From positions 462,647 to 526,646 of the forward strand of contig SCUL01000002.1 of the NCBI GenBank assembly GCA_004297205.1: a stretch of DNA of 64,000 bases, written 5' to 3'. The position numbers and the translations under genes were made by a program. This document shows positions 2,650-50,776 of this stretch, piece by piece. How positions within the stretch are numbered: position 1 is the stretch's first letter; each line of letters opens with the position of its first letter. The notes beneath the pieces were generated by a model. That model made no database searches and was not told where the DNA came from. It saw only the letters and a list, made by a program, of their open reading frames with translations. This stretch comes from Patescibacteria group bacterium. Its GTDB lineage: Bacteria > Patescibacteriota > Patescibacteriia > 2-12-FULL-57-11.

Positions 2650-2740
2650 TGCCACACTTCTCGTCTTTAAATCCCTTGAATTTTACACCTTACCGAAGCA
2701 GTGTACCACTTTTGGATTTTGAAGGAAAACGCGGTGTTCA

Positions 2741-3031
2741 TCACATTTTTTTGAACGCCGTCCCGTTGATTTTTTCGAGCGTGGATATCGTGAGCGAAAC
2801 GGAGGGATTGTCCGTATTTTTCAAGGTCATGCGACCCCCGAACCTTTTTTGCAGCGGCGTGAGGAATTCGTCTCCCCAGGAAGGCGAAAACGTGCTGACG
2901 CCGGCAAAATCGACAAGGATGTCTTCCTTGCCGTTCAGGCCGTCCAACGTCGGCAAAAAAGCCGCGAGGGCCTCTCTTCCCGCCTGACGGGACGTGAGCA
3001 CGGAACCGAATTTTGCAATGAAGATGGTCAT
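2741..3031 (-). CDS. STAS-like small protein (DUF4325-like), 96 aa.
   Basis: ORF MTIFIAKFGSVLTSRQAGREALAAFL...EDILVDFAGVSTFSPSWGDEFLTPL matches the DUF4325 STAS-like pattern (vvLDFeGV..ssSF.DEf). Stop of the upstream GHKL gene lies 7 nt before its start. Lower GC (~52%). Confidence 0.55.
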   Translation of the reverse strand: MTIFIAKFGSVLTSRQAGREALAAFLPTLDGLNGKEDILVDFAGVSTFSPSWGDEFLTPLQKRFGGRMTLKNTDNPSVSLTISTLEKINGTAFKKM

Positions 3032-3038
3032 GCGCCGT

Positions 3039-3773
3039 TCAATATTGGATGAACGCCAACGAACCGCGGATCGGCACGTCGGCTTTCTTCATGAGGAATC
3101 CCGGTTTGCCCTTCCGGATTTCAAGCACCGCATCACCGGATTGGAAGGTCAGATCCGCCTCGGACTTCGCAAGCGCATCCTTCACGTATTTCAAACCGTT
3201 GCCCCGATGTTCCGGCGCCCTCCCCGTGATGAATTCGGTGAAAGCCACGCGCAACGCTTCCTCGTCGGTTTTGAGACCGGGCCGTATCCGATGCAGCGTC
3301 GCAAAAACACCGACCCCGCGATCCGCAAGGACAACGACCCGTTTCCCCGGGTCATGGGCGAAAAAGACGCCCGGGAGATCCGGCCAATTTCCCAAGTTAT
3401 GATCGAAGGAGTTGTTGCCGATTTCCCCAACGGAAGAGGAAATGAGCGACGCAATGCCCTGAAGCGCGGGGTTGGCGTCCAACTCATGCGCCATGCGCTC
3501 GTAACGCGTTTTGAATCGGTCACTCGTCGAACAATAAAAGTCGTGTTCCGGGGGGTACGACTTTTCCGCACTGACCCATTCCTGGGCAACCCGAAAGATG
3601 CCTTTGGTCTTTCTTCCCAAGTCCGACAGCGCGTAATACCGATGGCCTCCCGGGGAAACGAAGGTTGCCTTAAAGGTTCCCTCGTTATGCCAACGCCGGA
3701 GAGTCGCCACGGAAACGCCCAGATATTTGGCCGCTTTCGTGATGGAAACAAGATTTTTTGCGACTTTCCCCAT
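3039..3773 (-). CDS. MerR-type HTH fused to a GHKL (histidine-kinase-like) ATPase domain; RsbW/SpoIIAB-like serine-kinase fold.
   Basis: Start at ATG 3773 (MGKVAKNLVSITKAAKYLGVSVATLRRWHNEGTF = MerR/excisionase-type HTH). C-terminal part has GHKL boxes: EIGNNSFDHNLG (N-box), VVLADRGVGV (G1), RGNGLKYV (G2). The longer in-frame ORF to 3884 is less likely. GC ~54%. Confidence 0.6.
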   Translation of the reverse strand: MGKVAKNLVSITKAAKYLGVSVATLRRWHNEGTFKATFVSPGGHRYYALSDLGRKTKGIFRVAQEWVSAEKSYPPEHDFYCSTSDRFKTRYERMAHELDANPALQGIASLISSSVGEIGNNSFDHNLGNWPDLPGVFFAHDPGKRVVVLADRGVGVFATLHRIRPGLKTDEEALRVAFTEFITGRAPEHRGNGLKYVKDALAKSEADLTFQSGDAVLEIRKGKPGFLMKKADVPIRGSLAFIQY

Positions 3774-3783
3774 ATCTGCAGAA

Positions 3784-3812
3784 AGTATACAAAAACTATA
3801 CAAACTTGTCAA
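3784..3812 (-). promoter_or_regulatory. Sigma70-like promoter for the HTH-GHKL gene with TTTGTATA direct repeats over the spacer and -10.
   Basis: Minus strand reads TTGACA-17nt-TATACT; about 10 nt further downstream is the ATG. TTTGTATA copies (plus-strand tatacaaa at 3786, 3797, 3816) overlap the spacer and -10 in MerR-operator-like placement. AT-rich (~38% GC). Confidence 0.45.
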
Positions 3813-3909
3813 ACCTATACAAATCTGTACATTTTGTGAAAATCGCTCATCCTCCCGACAAAAACGAGGTTGCCACGGCGCCAAAAAACGGGCAGGATAG
3901 CGGCAGTTT

Positions 3910-3984
3910 TCGCCCCTAGCTCAACGGATAGAGCTCCGGTCTTCAGAACCAGTGATGGGAGTTCGATTCTCTCAGGGCGCACCA
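3910..3984 (+). tRNA. tRNA-like gene with a Trp-type body but anticodon UCA (loop CUUCAGA); CCA encoded. Acceptor stem non-canonical as read.
   Basis: D-arm GCTC-AACGGATA-GAGC; anticodon arm CCGGT-CTTCAGA-ACCAG (one C.A mismatch); T-arm GGGAG-TTCGATT-CTCTC; 3' AGGGCGC-A-CCA. The 3' half closely resembles E. coli tRNA-Trp (GGGAGTTCGAGTCTCTC). The 5' strand tCGCCCCta pairs imperfectly with AGGGCGC, and G37 is unusual for a UCA anticodon. Confidence 0.5.
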
Positions 3985-4020: not shown

Positions 4021-4096
4021 CGGCTGCGGATCGAACCGCGCCGCATCCCCGCGCGAGCGGGGCTGTCGATGCAGCCGAACGTCCGCCCCCAGTGCA
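4021..4096 (-). other. GC-rich tRNA-like cloverleaf element (non-canonical): 7-bp acceptor-like stem enclosing three hairpins, one carrying GGTTCGATCC.
   Basis: Reverse complement GGGGCGG...CCGCCCC-G-CC forms a perfect 7-bp closing stem. Internal hairpins: GGCTG/CAGCC, CCCCGC-TCGC-GCGGGG (tetraloop, no anticodon loop), and TGCGG-[CGCGGTTCGAT]-CCGCA (11-nt loop). It is not a canonical tRNA. Confidence 0.3.
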
Positions 4097-4172
4097 TGGC
4101 GGAAGCCGGACGCGACCCGACAGCACCTATGCGGCACGGCGAGAGACGCAGCCGGCCCGCCGAGCGAACCCT

Positions 4173-4823
4173 ATGCCCCCCAAGAAAACCGTGAAACTCG
4201 ACAAGGCGCTGGCCTGCAAAGTGGTCCGCCACCCGCACCAGTTCCTGAAGGAGCTGTTGGACCTGCGCAACGAACATCCGGAGCGCGAGGCCGAGATCGA
4301 CCGCAAGATCCGCGAGACCTTCGAGTGCGAGCGCGCGCCCTTCATCCTGGACATGTCCGGTTTCTCCCGGACGGTCATCAAGCACGGCATCATCCATTAC
4401 CTGGCCATGATCCGTCGCATGGTGAACGTGGCCGTGCCGGCGATCACCGACAACAAAGGCGAGATCGTGAAGCAGGAAGCCGACAACATCTTCGCGGTTT
4501 TCGCCGATCCGACCGACGCGGTGCGCGCCGCCCAGGACGTGGTGCGCGGGCTGAACGCGCTGAACACCGTGCTGCCGGACGAGAAGGACATCTACGTGTC
4601 CATCGGCATCGGCTACGGCGACATCCTGCTCGTGCCGGGCGAAGACTTCTTCGGCAACGAGCTGAACCTTGCCTCAAAGCTCGGCGAGGACATCGCGGAG
4701 AAGGGCGAAGTGCTCCTGACGGAAGAAGCGCACGGCAAGATCACCGACTCGACCCTCAAGTTCGAGAAGGTTTCGGCCTCGATTTCCGGGGTCGGCCTCA
4801 AATATTTCCGGCTCAAGTCCTGA
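4173..4823 (+). CDS. Standalone class III adenylate/guanylate cyclase catalytic-domain protein (~216 aa).
   Basis: Motifs FILDMSGFSRTV (metal Asp), EADNIFAVFADP, VSIGIGYGDILLVPG, FFGNELNLASKLGE match the cyclase homology domain. The start at ATG 4173 (MPPKKTVKLDK) is preferred over the upstream in-frame ATG at 4092. Confidence 0.6.
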   Translation: MPPKKTVKLDKALACKVVRHPHQFLKELLDLRNEHPEREAEIDRKIRETFECERAPFILDMSGFSRTVIKHGIIHYLAMIRRMVNVAVPAITDNKGEIVKQEADNIFAVFADPTDAVRAAQDVVRGLNALNTVLPDEKDIYVSIGIGYGDILLVPGEDFFGNELNLASKLGEDIAEKGEVLLTEEAHGKITDSTLKFEKVSASISGVGLKYFRLKS

Positions 4824-20881: not shown

Positions 20882-21568
20882 TCAACCGCGAAAGATGTAT
20901 CTGGATGAACGATACATCATGCGATGGACAATAAATGTTGTGACAACTGTGAAAGCAAAGAACCAGGCGAGGTTAACCAAGAATGCGCGTGCGGTAAAGA
21001 GTTGAAGCGCGGATAACGCCATCTGCTGCGGACGGAGGAGCGCGTCCCAGACATTCAATCGCGTATAGAGTCCGAAGACGCTTGCGAAGGAAGCGAGCAG
21101 ACACATCGACACCATGAACAGGCGTTTTTTGCCCGAGTCACGAAATCGCGCGGTCGCGACCTGCGCAAGCGAAAAGACGTAGCTCAAAAAACCGGTGAGC
21201 GCGTACAGAAATACGGGGTAGAGCGTCCACAGGCGGTCAACACAAACACCCGTATACGTTTCTCCGGATGGAAGCCGACAGAGTTCGGCGACATGGCGAA
21301 TCTCCGTGACGGAATAAAGCGTATATGGAAGAAACGTCAACCATAAAAGCCACGCGAATGCGCTTTTCAAACCGGAAGCGGAGCCCCGGGCGATGGACCA
21401 TCCCGAAAACAACGGGACTCCGAGCAGCACGAGCCGCAATACGGAGAGCACGGGCACGCCGAACGGCCGAAGATTAGGATAGAGGTTCCAGTCATGCAGC
21501 AAAAAAACCGCAGTCACCATGCAGACCCCGATCGCGAATGCCGCTCGATGTGTAAAGGGTGTCTTCAT
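20882..21568 (-). CDS. Polytopic membrane protein, hypothetical (DUF1361-like); lower GC (~55%).
   Basis: 228-aa ORF with about six hydrophobic helices; GC drops relative to flanks. Confidence 0.55.
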   Translation of the reverse strand: MKTPFTHRAAFAIGVCMVTAVFLLHDWNLYPNLRPFGVPVLSVLRLVLLGVPLFSGWSIARGSASGLKSAFAWLLWLTFLPYTLYSVTEIRHVAELCRLPSGETYTGVCVDRLWTLYPVFLYALTGFLSYVFSLAQVATARFRDSGKKRLFMVSMCLLASFASVFGLYTRLNVWDALLRPQQMALSALQLFTARAFLVNLAWFFAFTVVTTFIVHRMMYRSSRYIFRG

Positions 21569-45979: not shown

Positions 45980-46591
45980 ATGCCGACCCCCGTTCCGTGT
46001 ATCGCATTCAGCGGGGCTCCCTGCACGGGTAAGACCACGTCCATCACCGCGATCAAGAGAGTATTTGGTGATGCGGTCTGCTGCATTCCCGAAGCAGCAA
46101 CGTTCGTGATCGGCCAAGCGGGTTTTCTGCCACCGTCGTCCATTGAGGAAAATCGGCTGTACGTGCGGGCAATGTCTCACGCGCGCATGGCTTTGGAAGA
46201 CATGGCGCAGACGCATGCTCGATCGTCGGGCGCTCAATTCATCGTTGCGGATCGTGCGGTTTTGGATGCGGCACCCTATCTGCCGGGTGGCCGCGACGAA
46301 CTCGCTGAGCTCCTTGAAACGACCGTCCAGGAACTCTTTCAACGGTATGCGACGGTTCTCTTCTTCGAACCGCCGACCAAAGAGATATTCGATGCGGGTC
46401 GAGCGGCGAATCCCGCGCGCTCGGACACCTACGAAGGCATTCAGCGCCTGACCGAGCAAACACGTGCGGCATGGACCGGACATCCCTCTTTTCAAAAGAT
46501 TCCCGCGACAGCAATTTGGAACGACAAGTACGCCCTCGTTGAATCAATCATCCGCGACAACCTGAATAAAAAAGAGGCCGGTCCCGCTTAG
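45980..46591 (+). CDS. P-loop NTPase of unknown function (AAA_28/NadR-like ATPase fold).
   Basis: Walker A FSGAPCTGKTTS; GC slightly lower than flanks. Occupies the slot where rplS usually follows trmD. Confidence 0.55.
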   Translation: MPTPVPCIAFSGAPCTGKTTSITAIKRVFGDAVCCIPEAATFVIGQAGFLPPSSIEENRLYVRAMSHARMALEDMAQTHARSSGAQFIVADRAVLDAAPYLPGGRDELAELLETTVQELFQRYATVLFFEPPTKEIFDAGRAANPARSDTYEGIQRLTEQTRAAWTGHPSFQKIPATAIWNDKYALVESIIRDNLNKKEAGPA

Positions 46592-49555: not shown

Positions 49556-49834
49556 AGTGATCGGGCATCATCATGGTAGGAAGTGCGCCCCCACCCTGGA
49601 TGATCCAAAGAGCGGCGTCAACGCCATCGTGACCCGACCCCTTCAGAAATGCCGGAAACTCATGATATAAGCCTGAAGATTGTTGTTATGTCAGAAAGCG
49701 TCATTTCAAGCCGCCAATTCTAGATATCTGTTGGGCGGCGACATTCGACGTCTTCCAGACTTATATGATAGTATCACCGATGTCGTCCTATTCATTAGCT
49801 TTCTCGTGTGTCACGCGTCGTTCCCCTTATATCA

Positions 49835-50776
49835 ATGCGCCTTCGTCAGCAGTGGTTGCGCGAACTCGGCGGACTTCAGGCATTTTCGGTGAAAAACAAA
49901 GAGTGGCTTCCATTGCTTGAGGAAGACACGCGCCAGTCCCTGATGATCGAGGGCGAGTTTGTCGATCGACGGGAACTGAAGAACATACTTGAACGTCGAC
50001 CAACGCCGCTGAGCGCCAAAGCCCACAAGGTGCTCGGATACTTCGATGCGGCGAGCTTCAGCTACGAATTCGCGTTCCAGCAGTTTCGTACCGGCGAGTT
50101 CGCTCTGAGCAAGGCGCTGCTACTTCAGATACACGCCCTCATGTTCCGAAATGATCCGCACTTCGCATACACGCCGGGAGAGTGGCGGCGCGGCGACATC
50201 ACCATTACTGGTGCGCCCGTGCGACCACCACCCGCGCATCGAGTGCCTGGGATCATGGATCGCCTGCTCGATCTCGCCAACAAGGCGAAGAGGGACCCCC
50301 TGCGTATCGCTGCCGTCCTTCACGCGGTATTCGAGCACGTCCATCCGTTTCCGGACGGCAACGGACGCGTTGGGAGGATCCTCCTCAACTTCATTCTCAT
50401 TGCGCACGGCTTGCCGAACATCGCCATCAAGGGAATGGAGGCGGAGCGGTCTGACTACGTCGCGGCGTTGGAGGAGGCGGATCCGGTTGTCGCGGACGTA
50501 CTTCGTGGTAGGCGGCCGTGGACATTCCTGCTCCAACACCCGTTCCTGCATCTCGAGGAGATTCTCAATCACGATCTCGCGGTTGCCATGGATTCCATCG
50601 TCTGTCCGCGCTTTGAGGAGAAGCGTGCGCCCTTGATGACGCTTGAGGAAGTCGCCAGGCAGACGAGCAGGAAGCTCCCCTCGTTTCAGACAGCCTGTTC
50701 TCAAAAAAAGTACATCTCAATCAAGCGCGGCCGAAGCCGCGTGACGCATCCGCTCCTTCTTCAAAAGCCGCGGTAG
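49835..50776 (+). CDS. fic: Fic/Doc family protein (AMPylator-type Fido domain).
   Basis: Fic motif HPFPDGNGRVGR. Start at ATG 49835 (MRLRQQW); the track start at 49808 is GTG. Followed by a terminator-like hairpin at 50809-50845. Confidence 0.8.
   Translation: MRLRQQWLRELGGLQAFSVKNKEWLPLLEEDTRQSLMIEGEFVDRRELKNILERRPTPLSAKAHKVLGYFDAASFSYEFAFQQFRTGEFALSKALLLQIHALMFRNDPHFAYTPGEWRRGDITITGAPVRPPPAHRVPGIMDRLLDLANKAKRDPLRIAAVLHAVFEHVHPFPDGNGRVGRILLNFILIAHGLPNIAIKGMEAERSDYVAALEEADPVVADVLRGRRPWTFLLQHPFLHLEEILNHDLAVAMDSIVCPRFEEKRAPLMTLEEVARQTSRKLPSFQTACSQKKYISIKRGRSRVTHPLLLQKPR

What the first reader, a model, noticed from the sequence alone, without database searches (positions are those of the whole stretch)
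2650..3909. Low-GC two-gene module: MerR-HTH/GHKL-ATPase fusion plus STAS-like (DUF4325) partner beside tRNA-like genes
In a ~65% GC genome, a 1.25 kb stretch at 38-54% GC carries two co-oriented genes. The first fuses a MerR/excisionase-type HTH to a histidine-kinase-like (GHKL) ATPase whose N, G1 and G2 boxes are readable. The second is a 96-aa STAS-like DUF4325 protein, 7 nt downstream. The GHKL+STAS pairing recalls the RsbW/RsbV partner-switching logic, but here the kinase-like ATPase carries its own DNA-binding domain and no sigma factor is adjacent. The module's own promoter (TTGACA-17-TATACT) is overlaid by three TTTGTATA direct repeats in MerR-operator-like placement. It sits between a giant adhesin gene and an unusual tRNA, suggesting a horizontally acquired regulatory or conflict (defence/toxin-control) module.
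Basis: partly seen in the sequence, partly recalled or inferred. Interest (0 to 1): 0.75.

Follow-up and report, generated by a model that had tools for sequence, protein, structure and literature searches.

The report
Self-regulated kinase-like switch in CPR bacteria
This is a two-gene regulatory cassette conserved in hundreds of ultra-small (CPR/Patescibacteria) bacteria: a DNA-binding protein fused to an anti-sigma-factor-like ATPase/kinase appears to sit on repeats in its own promoter and is always paired with a small STAS partner, so it looks like a lineage-wide regulator of unknown output rather than a one-off foreign defence island.

Summary

New here: the pair occurs in at least 553 species-level genomes across Patescibacteria. 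GeneB lies directly downstream in 79 of 80 loci, and no third gene is conserved. Nearly every orthologue has 2-4 direct repeats of TGTATAGNTTT around its promoter. That motif is about 3000-fold enriched there and absent from the rest of the window. Residue 23, at the recognition helix, covaries with the repeat core; a blind prediction (D23 gives TGCATAG) was confirmed. The protein therefore very probably binds its own promoter.

The closest characterised systems are SpoIIAB/SpoIIAA partner switching and CapK/CapS (2026). Here the kinase-like protein itself carries the only DNA-binding domain.

Low GC is real (53% against 64%; GC3 0.66-0.69 against 0.83) and recurs in every GC-rich relative. 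The "foreign defence/toxin module" reading is not supported. I rate it a new variant of a known kind.

The parts
3039..3773 (-). geneA: 244-aa HTH-GHKL protein (stop codon included)
   Evidence: ORF. The start at ATG 3773 is fixed by 120 full-length homologues of about 244 aa. AF2 model pLDDT 87.5.
3600..3752 (-). geneA residues 8-58: MerR/excisionase (BldC/Xis-like) winged HTH; recognition helix A23-T-L-R-R-W28
3462..3599 (-). geneA residues 59-104: helical linker and N-terminal extension with conserved FYC-x-T-x-D-x-F-K-x-R; it holds no STAS domain
   Evidence: Secondary structure of the model. Conserved columns Y80, C81, T83, D85, F87, K88, R90. The segment is retained in the HTH-less relatives.
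3042..3461 (-). geneA residues 105-244: GHKL/Bergerat ATP-binding domain of the anti-sigma-factor kinase type
3396..3425 (-). N box, E117-I-G-N-N121-S-F-D-H-N126
   Evidence: Invariant columns in 48 homologues.
3309..3323 (-). G1 box, D151-R-G-V-G155
   Evidence: Invariant columns. Codons read directly from the sequence.
3189..3206 (-). G2 box / ATP lid, R190-G-N-G-L-K195
   Evidence: Invariant columns. The lid region has low pLDDT at residues 186-189, as is usual for ATP lids.
2741..3031 (-). geneB: 96-aa single-domain STAS protein (DUF4325), 7 nt after geneA
2864..2887 (-). geneB S49-P-S51-W-G-D-E-F56: conserved motif at the start of helix 2, the candidate phospho-acceptor site
   Evidence: P50 to F56 invariant and S49 at 90% or more. 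The helix starts at residue 50 in the model. The motif aligns with the F-A-S48-P-F phospho-site stretch of VapS at a weak E = 1.2.
3781..3831 (-). Operator: four direct repeats TGTACAGATTT (3831-3821), TGTATAGGTTT (3821-3811), TGTATAGTTTT (3802-3792), TGTATACTTTC (3791-3781); start-to-start spacing 10, 19 and 11 nt
   Evidence: The same unit lies upstream of the orthologues across the phylum.
3784..3812 (-). Sigma-70-type promoter, TTGACA (3812-3807), 17 nt, TATACT (3789-3784). The -10 lies inside repeat 4 and ends 10 nt before the ATG, with no Shine-Dalgarno sequence, so the mRNA is probably leaderless.
   Evidence: SD-like tetramers occur in 5 of 79 orthologous loci, and the -10 ends 5-12 nt before the ATG in 30 loci.

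Best explanation
The module is a self-contained, autoregulated regulatory cassette of the partner-switching type, conserved across Patescibacteria (CPR).

Step 1 (shown by comparative evidence). GeneA binds, through its BldC/excisionase-like winged HTH, a row of direct repeats (TGTAYAGNTTT, one or two helical turns apart). These repeats flank the -35, fill the spacer and contain the -10 of its own promoter. Occupancy should therefore repress transcription of the geneA-geneB operon.

Step 2 (shown structurally, activity inferred). The C-terminal half of geneA is an ATP-binding GHKL domain of the SpoIIAB/RsbW anti-sigma-kinase type with all nucleotide-binding motifs intact. GeneB is a single STAS domain of the SpoIIAA/RsbV type.

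Step 3 (inferred by analogy with SpoIIAB-SpoIIAA and CapK-CapS). GeneB docks on the GHKL domain and is phosphorylated on the conserved Ser49 or Ser51 at the start of helix 2. Formation and break-up of that complex, set by ATP/ADP or by an unlinked phosphatase, changes the oligomeric state of geneA on the repeats and so turns the promoter on or off.

The output beyond autoregulation is not known. It could be further promoters, or a protein target of the kinase or of free geneB.
For: Architecture.
- HTH_17 and MerR hits are above cut-off.
- The AF2 model has pLDDT 87.5.
- The N, G1 and G2 boxes are invariant.

Coupling of the two genes.
- GeneB is directly downstream in 79 of 80 genome loci. The one exception is cut by a contig end.
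- Pairwise identities of A and B correlate at r = 0.69, with 0 of 999 Mantel permutations reaching that value.
- HTH-less relatives are also followed by a DUF4325 gene.
- A single-chain wHTH+HATPase_c_2+DUF4325 fusion exists in L005.

Operator.
- TGYAYAGDTT occurs 110 times in 12.6 kb of upstream regions, against 4 times in 678 kb of the remaining locus DNA.
- In the 64-kb window it occurs only at 3792-3831.
- Repeat spacings are 10 and 19-21 nt.
- A two-copy pattern scan of metagenomes returned 120 hits. In 27 of them geneA starts 1-59 nt downstream, and no other gene recurs downstream.
- Two HTH-less relatives lack the repeats.

Recognition code.
- Residue 23 is D in all 14 loci with TGCATAG operators and never D in 29 loci with TGTATAG (Fisher p = 1.3e-11).
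- N23 goes with (A/G)GTAGAT.
- D23 needs at least 9 state changes on an NJ tree built without the HTH.
- A blind test was passed. P0061 carries D23 but sits inside the TGTATAG clade; it was predicted to have TGCATAG repeats and has four of them plus one TGCCTAG. K23 goes with TGTCYAAC and E23 with TGTTGAG.

Precedents. BldC-type HTH proteins bind direct repeats head-to-tail (PMC5859096). A GHKL kinase plus STAS substrate controls a promoter without any sigma factor in CapK/CapS (PMC13373217).
Against: - No profile method recognises the GHKL domain. Pfam, NCBIfam and PDB sequence searches all miss it, so its assignment rests on a predicted structure plus motifs.
- DUF4325 is only at threshold for this copy.
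- Kinase activity, the A-B complex and DNA binding are all untested. A complex could not be modelled with the tools available.
- The equivalence of S49/S51 to the SpoIIAA or VapS phospho-serine rests on a weak alignment (E = 1.2) and on helix position, not on a superposition.
- No phosphatase and no second target site were found. An autoregulator with no known output is an incomplete explanation.
- Repression rather than activation is inferred only from the positions of the sites.
Confidence: 0.6

Rival explanations
1. Mobile conflict cassette. GeneA would be a kinase-type toxin or sensor that represses its own operon. GeneB would be its STAS antitoxin or substrate, as in VapK/VapS/VapC. The pair would spread laterally and persist by addiction or by anti-phage benefit.
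For: - It is a bicistronic, autoregulated pair of small genes.
- Its genomic context varies even between 80-84% identical copies.
- One contig carries two tandem paralogous modules.
- Module GC regresses toward the family mean (slope 0.66). GC3 is 0.14-0.31 below the neighbours in every GC-rich host, this window included.
- tRNA genes lie just upstream in 10 of 40 loci.
- VapKSC shows that a GHKL+STAS pair can gate a toxin.
- A NYN nuclease gene lies near one module, in L154.
Against: - No toxin or effector gene is conserved within 4 kb in 81 loci.
- PADLOC gives only a generic HTH match.
- IMG/VR holds one hit.
- Conservation is very high: 44-88% identity over the full length, across phylum-level CPR lineages.
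- Each of the 80 genome loci held one copy within its flanks.
- Module GC tracks the host at r = 0.84.
- In the window the neighbours are housekeeping genes: PilT-like ATPase, RNase III, NusB-like.
Confidence: 0.18
2. Genuine anti-sigma / anti-anti-sigma pair. The GHKL domain of geneA would sequester a sigma factor encoded elsewhere (CPR genomes have few), geneB would release it, and the HTH would serve only to autoregulate the operon.
For: - The best structural matches are exactly the SpoIIAB-sigmaF and RsbW/RsbV complex partners.
- The conserved helical N-terminal extension (residues 84-100) sits where SpoIIAB has its dimer and sigma-binding helix (the comparison of position is my inference).
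- No second DNA target was found.
Against: - No sigma factor gene is linked in any of 81 loci.
- CapK/CapS shows that such pairs work without sigma factors.
- Sigma binding cannot be tested with these tools.
Confidence: 0.14
3. ATP-driven DNA-architectural or recombination-directionality factor. An Xis/RDF-like HTH would polymerise on direct repeats, and a GHKL domain would dimerise on ATP (GHL-clamp style). It would act on DNA topology or on site-specific recombination near tRNA genes rather than on transcription.
For: - The HTH matches excisionase and RdfS.
- Foldseek's top hits are the Hsp90 and TopoII ATPase domains.
- tRNA genes are frequently directly upstream.
- An integrase gene lies 3.5 kb away in L211.
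Against: - The repeats coincide with the -35, spacer and -10 of the gene's own promoter in most loci.
- No integrase or att-like repeats are conserved next to the pair.
- The protein lacks the transducer (S5-fold) domain of GHL clamps: it ends with the Bergerat fold at residue 244.
Confidence: 0.06

Closest known systems
SpoIIAB-SpoIIAA / RsbW-RsbV partner-switching modules (anti-sigma serine kinase + STAS antagonist)
   Different: No sigma factor gene is linked. The kinase-like protein carries its own N-terminal HTH and an operator in its own promoter. The sequences are too divergent for HATPase_c_2 or STAS Pfam models. No linked PP2C phosphatase was seen in the loci, although this was not searched genome-wide.
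CapK-CapS and VapK-VapS-VapC (Chambers et al., EMBO J 2026, PMC13373217)
   Same: An anti-sigma-like GHKL kinase gene is immediately followed by a STAS-domain gene. The pair controls a promoter or an effector without any sigma factor, and the operon is autoregulated. CapK also has an N-terminal HTH. VapS is the only PDB sequence touched by the geneB profile, at a weak E = 1.2.
   Different: - CapK is HTH-STAS-GHKL and senses ssDNA at its STAS-GHKL interface. GeneA has no internal STAS.
- The DNA-binding repressor there is CapS (STAS-wHTH), acting on palindromes. Here geneB has no HTH, and the only DNA-binding domain is on the kinase-like protein, whose sites are direct repeats.
- CapKS sits upstream of immune operons and VapKS next to a PIN toxin. 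Here no neighbouring gene is conserved.
- That family was described in diverse bacteria; this one is CPR-wide.
BldC family / Xis-type MerR-like winged HTH proteins (PMC5859096)
   Different: BldC is a 68-residue stand-alone protein with a 9-bp AATT-N4-C unit. Here the HTH is fused to a GHKL domain, the unit is TGTAYAGNTTT at 10-11 or 19-21 nt, and binding is inferred rather than shown.
Canonical MerR regulators
   Same: The N-terminal HTH matches Pfam MerR above its cut-off. One site lies in the promoter spacer.
   Different: There is no coiled-coil dimerisation helix or effector pocket. The sites are direct repeats rather than palindromes, and the spacer is 17 nt rather than 19-20 nt.
Single-chain wHTH-HATPase_c_2-DUF4325 proteins (e.g. 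the 347-aa protein at L005 9199-10242)
   Same: The same three modules occur in one polypeptide, which is Rosetta-stone support for a functional link between HTH, GHKL and DUF4325. Its DUF4325 part aligns with geneB at E = 9e-4.
   Different: It has a different HTH type (HTH_24), a GHKL domain that Pfam recognises, and only marginal sequence similarity to geneA. It is also uncharacterised.

Membership tests
GHKL (Bergerat-fold) ATPase/kinase superfamily | Bergerat alpha/beta sandwich fold | tested here: met
GHKL (Bergerat-fold) ATPase/kinase superfamily | Conserved N box (E-x3-N), G1 (D-x-G-x-G) and G2 (G-x-G) nucleotide-binding motifs | tested here: met
   E117, N121, D151, G153, G155, G191 and G193 are invariant in 48 homologues.
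GHKL (Bergerat-fold) ATPase/kinase superfamily | Match to a curated sequence model (Pfam HATPase_c / HATPase_c_2) above threshold | tested here: not met
   GeneA gives no hit in Pfam, NCBIfam or PDB sequence and profile searches. Two HTH-less relatives give sub-threshold HATPase_c_2 hits of 18-20 bits against a cut-off of 27.4.
Anti-sigma factor serine kinases (SpoIIAB/RsbW type) | Adjacent STAS-domain antagonist/substrate gene | tested here: met
   GeneB starts 7 nt downstream and has a STAS fold. The pairing holds in 79 of 80 loci.
Anti-sigma factor serine kinases (SpoIIAB/RsbW type) | Cognate sigma factor, usually in the same operon, that the kinase sequesters | tested here: not met
   No sigma gene is adjacent in the window, and no third gene is conserved in 81 loci. 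A distant sigma target cannot be excluded.
Anti-sigma factor serine kinases (SpoIIAB/RsbW type) | Phosphorylates the conserved serine of the STAS partner | not testable with these tools
   This needs a kinase or Phos-tag assay. All that can be said here is that the ATP-binding residues and a conserved Ser are present.
STAS domain / anti-sigma antagonists (SpoIIAA, RsbV); Pfam DUF4325 | STAS fold | tested here: met
STAS domain / anti-sigma antagonists (SpoIIAA, RsbV); Pfam DUF4325 | Pfam model hit above gathering threshold | tested here: met
   DUF4325 scores 23.2 bits against a cut-off of 23.0, which is borderline for this copy. Most orthologues carry the precomputed PF14213 hit. There is no hit to the classical STAS models.
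STAS domain / anti-sigma antagonists (SpoIIAA, RsbV); Pfam DUF4325 | Conserved Ser/Thr at the N-terminus of helix 2 (phospho-acceptor) | tested here: inconclusive
   S51 is invariant and S49 is at 90% or more, and helix 2 starts at residue 50. The alignment to the VapS S48 region is weak and ambiguous by one residue. No structural superposition was possible.
CapK/CapS regulators (PMC13373217) | CapK architecture HTH-STAS-GHKL, with the ssDNA site at the STAS-GHKL interface | tested here: not met
   GeneA is 244 aa. Residues 59-104 are helices only, and there is no room for a STAS domain.
CapK/CapS regulators (PMC13373217) | CapS = STAS + C-terminal wHTH repressor binding palindromes | tested here: not met
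   GeneB is a 96-aa STAS-only protein. The operator is made of direct repeats.
CapK/CapS regulators (PMC13373217) | Located directly upstream of an immune operon (CBASS, Bub, Thoeris and others) | tested here: not met
   In the window the downstream gene is a DUF2341/LamG surface protein. Nothing is conserved downstream in 81 loci. PADLOC is negative.
VapKSC toxin-antitoxin | Third gene encoding a VapC-like PIN nuclease | tested here: not met
   It is absent from the window and from the conserved neighbourhood. A single anecdotal NYN gene lies 0.7 kb downstream of geneB's stop in L154.
MerR family transcription factors | N-terminal MerR-type winged HTH | tested here: met
   Pfam MerR 33.0 bits against 28.2, and MerR_1 27.7 against 21.6. 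The A1 profile hits TipA and MtaN at E = 1.5e-4 to 4e-4.
MerR family transcription factors | Coiled-coil dimerisation helix plus C-terminal effector domain; palindromic operator in a 19-20 bp spacer | tested here: not met
   The model shows no long coiled coil. The spacer is 17 nt and the sites are direct repeats.
BldC family (MerR-like, direct-repeat binders) | MerR-like wHTH lacking the coiled coil; target sites are tandem direct repeats bound head-to-tail | tested here: inconclusive
Known anti-phage defence systems (PADLOC-DB v2) | Significant match of either protein to a defence-system model beyond a generic domain | tested here: not met
   The only matches are mad1 (a 60-residue HTH model) and a weak methyltransferase HTH stretch for geneA. 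GeneB matches nothing.

The most novel reading that the evidence does not exclude
The cassette could be the main lineage-specific transcription switch of CPR/Patescibacteria. It would be an anti-sigma-type kinase that has itself become the DNA-bound repressor, gated by phosphorylation of, or docking with, a minimal STAS partner according to the cell's energy or host-attachment state. It would have a simple one-residue/one-base recognition code (residue 23 against the core of the TGTAYAG unit) that has been re-tuned many times. It would also control further genes through weaker or single sites not detectable here.
Probability: 0.3. Interest if true: 0.8.

Novelty: new variant of a known kind. 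Interest (0 to 1): 0.6.

Why it matters
CPR/Patescibacteria have tiny genomes and almost none of their regulation has been characterised. This work pairs a transcription factor with its operator across at least 553 species-level genomes. It also gives a computed specificity code that can be tested directly by EMSA and by point mutants such as A23D.

The cassette extends the recently shown principle that anti-sigma-like GHKL kinase + STAS pairs can regulate promoters without sigma factors (CapK/CapS). The new layout puts the DNA-binding domain on the kinase-like protein. It also assigns a first concrete context to a DUF4325 clade.

For genome annotation, it warns that a locally low-GC, context-variable gene pair next to a tRNA is not necessarily a defence island.

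Tried and rejected
- Sequence-profile detection of the GHKL domain failed. Pfam, NCBIfam, PDB phmmer and a PDB profile search found only the HTH. The assignment therefore rests on structure and motifs.
- PADLOC gave no defence-system match.
- IMG/VR gave one relative among 2.9 million viral contigs, so the family is not phage-borne.
- I looked for a conserved third gene (effector, sigma factor, phosphatase) by clustering all ORFs within 4 kb in 81 loci. Only geneA and geneB recur. The other large clusters are antisense or alternative-frame ORFs inside the two genes.
- I looked for a regulon.
  - The motif is absent from the rest of the 64-kb window.
  - It occurs only 4 times in 678 kb of other locus DNA.
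  - The extra sites in L120 belong to a second, paralogous module.
  - The 93 metagenome pattern hits without geneA share no downstream gene. Those I examined lie in AT-rich contigs or in tandem arrays, so I read most as chance matches; some sit at contig ends.
  - The long TGTATAG arrays (L140, L170, L178) looked like possible decoy or iteron arrays. L178, the only one I inspected, is a satellite-rich contig with (CA)n and several other tandem repeats, so I judged it unrelated.
- I considered a MerR-type activation mechanism and rejected it: the spacer is 17 nt and the sites are direct repeats.
- I considered integration at the tRNA. The cassette lies 5' of, and divergent from, the tRNA(UCA), not at its 3' end, and no integrase is nearby in the window.
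- An exact 31-mer of the tRNA(UCA) was not found in IMG/VR.
- The literature searches (DUF4325; Patescibacteria + STAS + anti-sigma; CPR + anti-sigma antagonist) returned nothing on this cassette.
Full report
WHAT IS THERE

The finding's interval holds two co-oriented genes on the minus strand. GeneA runs from ATG 3773 to the TGA at 3041-3039 and encodes 244 aa. The longer TTG-initiated ORF from 3884 is an artefact of ORF listing: the 120 best homologues are almost all 244 aa and align from the same methionine. GeneB runs from ATG 3031 to stop 2741 and encodes 96 aa. It starts 7 nt after geneA's stop.

Downstream on the same strand, a DUF2341 + LamG surface protein starts at 2649 and runs off the window. 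Upstream and divergent lies a 75-nt tRNA-like gene with anticodon UCA at 3910-3984. Beyond it come ordinary housekeeping genes, including a PilT-like ATPase and RNase III.

GeneB is identical to an NCBI protein annotated as a hypothetical protein of a "Patescibacteria group bacterium", on an 856-kb contig. The organism is therefore a GC-rich member of the CPR.

DOMAIN ASSIGNMENT

The N-terminus of geneA matches HTH_17, MerR and MerR_1 above the Pfam cut-offs. Nothing in Pfam, NCBIfam or the PDB sequence set recognises the C-terminal 140 residues, even with a 48-sequence profile.

THE PAIR IS A PHYLUM-WIDE CASSETTE

The best 80 loci carry labels from Uhr-, Moran-, Peri-, Terry-, Portnoy-, Howlett-, Lloyd-, Colwell-, Staskawicz-, Nealson-, Falkow-, Woese-, Giovannoni- and Amesbacteria. 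Identities are 44-80% over the full length. Some "Gammaproteobacteria" and "Saccharibacteria" labels on third-party bins are probably unreliable.

- In 79 of these 80 loci a geneB homologue lies directly downstream. The gap is 3-57 nt, except 215 nt in one locus. The single exception is cut off by the contig end.
- Pairwise identities of A and B correlate at r = 0.69, with 0 of 999 Mantel permutations reaching that value.
- When all ORFs within 4 kb in 81 loci are clustered, only these two genes recur.
- The neighbourhood changes even between copies 80-84% identical to the window's.
- One contig carries two tandem modules that are 48% identical, so old paralogues exist.
- The GHKL domain family is small: 322 clusters at 50% identity among 1.84 billion representatives. 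It includes an HTH-less form of 190-200 aa that keeps the conserved FYC-x-T-x-D linker.
- In the three HTH-less loci checked (for two proteins), a DUF4325 gene follows. One of those loci appears to be non-CPR.
- A single-chain wHTH + HATPase_c_2 + DUF4325 protein lies close to the module in L005.

A CONSERVED OPERATOR AND A RECOGNITION CODE

They bracket the -35, occupy the spacer and contain the -10 of a near-consensus promoter, TTGACA-17-TATACT, which matches 11 of 12 positions.

The same unit, as TGTATAG(A/T)TTT or TGCATAGATTT, is repeated 2-4 times upstream of the orthologue in almost every locus, in varying arrangements around a TTGACA.
- The 10-mer TGYAYAGDTT occurs 110 times in 12.6 kb of upstream regions. 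It occurs 4 times in the remaining 678 kb of those loci, and two of those four lie about 200 nt upstream of geneA in L052.
- 70 of 79 loci have an exact 8-mer direct repeat in the last 120 nt.
- Start-to-start spacings cluster at 10 and 19-21 nt, that is, one or two helical turns.
- In the 64-kb window the motif occurs nowhere else.
- A scan of metagenomes for a two-copy pattern returned 120 stretches. In 27 of them geneA starts 1-59 nt downstream in the right orientation. The rest share no downstream gene.
- The two HTH-less relatives examined have no such repeats.

Most informative is residue 23, at the start of the recognition helix (S-x-X23-T-L-R-R-W), which covaries with the core of the repeat.
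- It is Asp in all 14 loci with TGCATAG operators and never Asp in 29 loci with TGTATAG (p = 1.3e-11, uncorrected for phylogeny).
- Asn goes with (A/G)GTAGAT.
- On an NJ tree built from the non-HTH part only, Asp23 needs at least 9 changes (the tree is poorly resolved).

I then made a blind test. P0061 has Asp23 but is 69% identical to the window protein, so it lies inside the otherwise TGTATAG-type clade. Its upstream region carries four TGCATAG units and one TGCCTAG unit, as predicted. A Ser23 protein has TGTATAG. A Lys23 protein has TGTC(C/T)AACTTT. A Glu23 protein has TGTTGAGGTTT. I regard direct binding of geneA's HTH to these repeats, and hence autoregulation, as the best-supported functional statement that can be made without an experiment.

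LIKELY MECHANISM

BldC-type MerR-like domains bind variable numbers of direct repeats as head-to-tail multimers (PMC5859096). That fits the repeat architecture here far better than the MerR paradigm, which uses a palindrome in a 19-20-bp spacer. Because units 3 and 4 cover the spacer and the -10, occupancy should repress; this is inferred from position only.

The -10 ends 10 nt before the ATG and there is no Shine-Dalgarno sequence. SD-like tetramers occur in 5 of 79 orthologous loci, and the -10-to-ATG distance is 5-12 nt in 30 loci. The mRNA is therefore probably leaderless.

For the GHKL-STAS half, the closest characterised precedents are SpoIIAB-SpoIIAA and the CapK-CapS / VapK-VapS systems published in 2026 (PMC13373217). 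In those, an anti-sigma-like kinase phosphorylates a conserved serine at the start of STAS helix 2 and thereby releases a repressor from DNA or an antitoxin from a toxin. GeneB has an invariant P50-S51-W-G-D-E-F56 and a nearly invariant S49 exactly where helix 2 begins. The only PDB sequence its profile touches is VapS, around its phospho-serine, at a weak E = 1.2.

My working model is this. GeneB docks on, and is phosphorylated by, geneA's GHKL domain. This changes the oligomeric state of geneA on the repeats. The input would be ATP/ADP or an unlinked phosphatase. These steps are inference. What the switch controls besides itself is unknown.

COMPOSITION AND ORIGIN

The dip in GC is real. The interval is 53.2% GC against 63.7% for the window and ranks second-lowest of 628 windows of 1260 nt. 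The genes themselves are 54-56% GC, and only the intergenic parts are about 41%. GC3 is 0.66 for geneA and 0.69 for geneB, against 0.83 +/- 0.08 for 58 ORFs of the window that show a coding-like GC pattern (that set includes geneA's long ORF and some overlapping frames).

This is not peculiar to this genome. Across 71 loci, module GC follows flank GC (r = 0.84) with a slope of 0.66. In every GC-rich relative the module's GC3 is 0.14-0.31 below that of neighbouring ORFs.

This may reflect lateral exchange among CPR lineages of different GC, or selection on the sequence. I cannot separate the two.

Several results argue against a defence or toxin island: the lack of any PADLOC match, the near absence from viral contigs, the lack of a linked effector, the very high conservation, and the housekeeping surroundings. 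The variable context, the tandem paralogues and the frequent tRNA neighbours keep a mobile-cassette reading alive at roughly one in five.

VERDICT

The architecture and the partner-switching analogy are right. The MerR-operator analogy and the "horizontally acquired conflict module" inference are not supported. No paper in the searchable library describes this cassette. Public annotation calls the proteins "helix-turn-helix domain-containing" and "DUF4325 domain-containing". I rate it a new variant of a known kind: GHKL-STAS partner switching, nearest to CapK/CapS but with the DNA-binding domain on the kinase-like protein. It has moderate to high interest because it supplies a testable regulator, operator and specificity code for a phylum whose regulation is almost unexplored.

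Noticed in passing
window 3910-3984 (+): This is a 75-nt tRNA-like gene with anticodon UCA and an encoded CCA. ARAGORN labels it 'SeC', but it is far too short for tRNA-Sec. Rfam tRNA scores 42.1 bits, with mismatched pairs at 1-72, 7-66 and in the anticodon stem. The MFE fold is not a cloverleaf (z = -1.4). TGA is the commonest stop codon in the window (25 of 44 likely genes) and ends both geneA and geneB. The gene is therefore either a UGA suppressor or a decaying tRNA. A 31-mer from it has no exact match in IMG/VR, and it was not seen in 40 related loci.
   Followed up: partly
L007, L009, L015, L016, L017, L025, L027, L029, L034, L062, L075 (upstream of geneA): tRNA genes of at least five isotypes (His, Arg+His, Ala, Asn, Ser, Met/Gly) lie within about 550 nt upstream of geneA, on the same strand, in 10 of 40 loci scanned; in L007 the tRNA-His lies 673 nt upstream. 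By my estimate that is far more than tRNA density would give, although related loci are not independent. I have no explanation for it.
   Followed up: partly
geneA residue 23 (window 3705-3707, minus strand) and orthologues; loci L214, L215, L216, L218: There is a one-residue/operator-core recognition code. A/T/S/M/Q/V/I23 goes with TGTATAG, D23 with TGCATAG, N23 with (A/G)GTAGAT, K23 with TGTCYAAC, and E23 with TGTTGAG. The D23 prediction was confirmed blind.
   Followed up: yes
window 3774-3783 and 79 orthologous upstream regions: GeneA appears to be translated from a leaderless or near-leaderless mRNA. The -10 ends 10 nt before the ATG here and 5-12 nt before it in 30 loci. SD-like tetramers are present in only 5 of 79 loci.
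   Followed up: partly
L008, L009, L016, L017, L018, L022 and window 2741-3773: In every GC-rich relative the two genes have GC3 0.14-0.31 below the neighbouring ORFs. In AT-rich hosts they are at or slightly above the flank GC (slope 0.66). The family-wide compression of GC is unexplained; it could come from lateral exchange or from selection.
   Followed up: partly
L120 7166-8253 and 9092-10143: Two paralogous HTH-GHKL + DUF4325 modules lie in tandem on one groundwater contig. They are 48% identical. Each has its own TGTATAGGTTT-type repeats, and they differ at residue 23 (Q against A).
   Followed up: partly
L208 891-1765; L209 2897-3765; L210 97-965: HTH-less relatives of geneA (190-200 aa) are likewise followed by an overlapping DUF4325 gene. 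No TGTATAG repeats lie upstream of the two checked (L208, L209). L209 looks non-CPR: its neighbours are a Toluene_X outer-membrane protein and a GAF-cyclase. In L208 a HARE-HTH protein precedes the pair.
   Followed up: partly
L005 9199-10242 (-): A 347-aa single-chain wHTH (HTH_24) + HATPase_c_2 + DUF4325 protein is encoded 2.2 kb from the split module in the same genome.
   Followed up: partly
window 3806-3833 (+): A weaker promoter-like site (TTGTCA-16-TACATT, 9 of 12 positions) lies on the opposite strand inside the repeat region and points toward the tRNA(UCA). If it is real, the same operator could also gate the tRNA gene.
   Followed up: no
L154 1125-2192 (-): Downstream of one module lie an IS200-like Y1 transposase ORF and a NYN-domain nuclease gene, with a two-copy TGTATAG pattern just upstream of the NYN gene. 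This is a single case.
   Followed up: partly
L004 3256-4630: A diversity-generating-retroelement-like pair (RVT_1 reverse transcriptase and bAvd) lies about 1.4 kb upstream of the module in a 1.19-Mb CPR chromosome.
   Followed up: no
window 20882-21568 (-), 45980-46591 (+), 49808-50776 (+): These are other ORFs in the window with unusually low GC3 (0.62-0.70 against a mean of 0.83). I did not examine them.
   Followed up: no
window 4092-4823 (+): This 243-aa ORF next to the tRNA has no Pfam hit at E <= 0.001, although by eye its sequence resembles a class III nucleotidyl cyclase core (the resemblance is from memory and untested).
   Followed up: no
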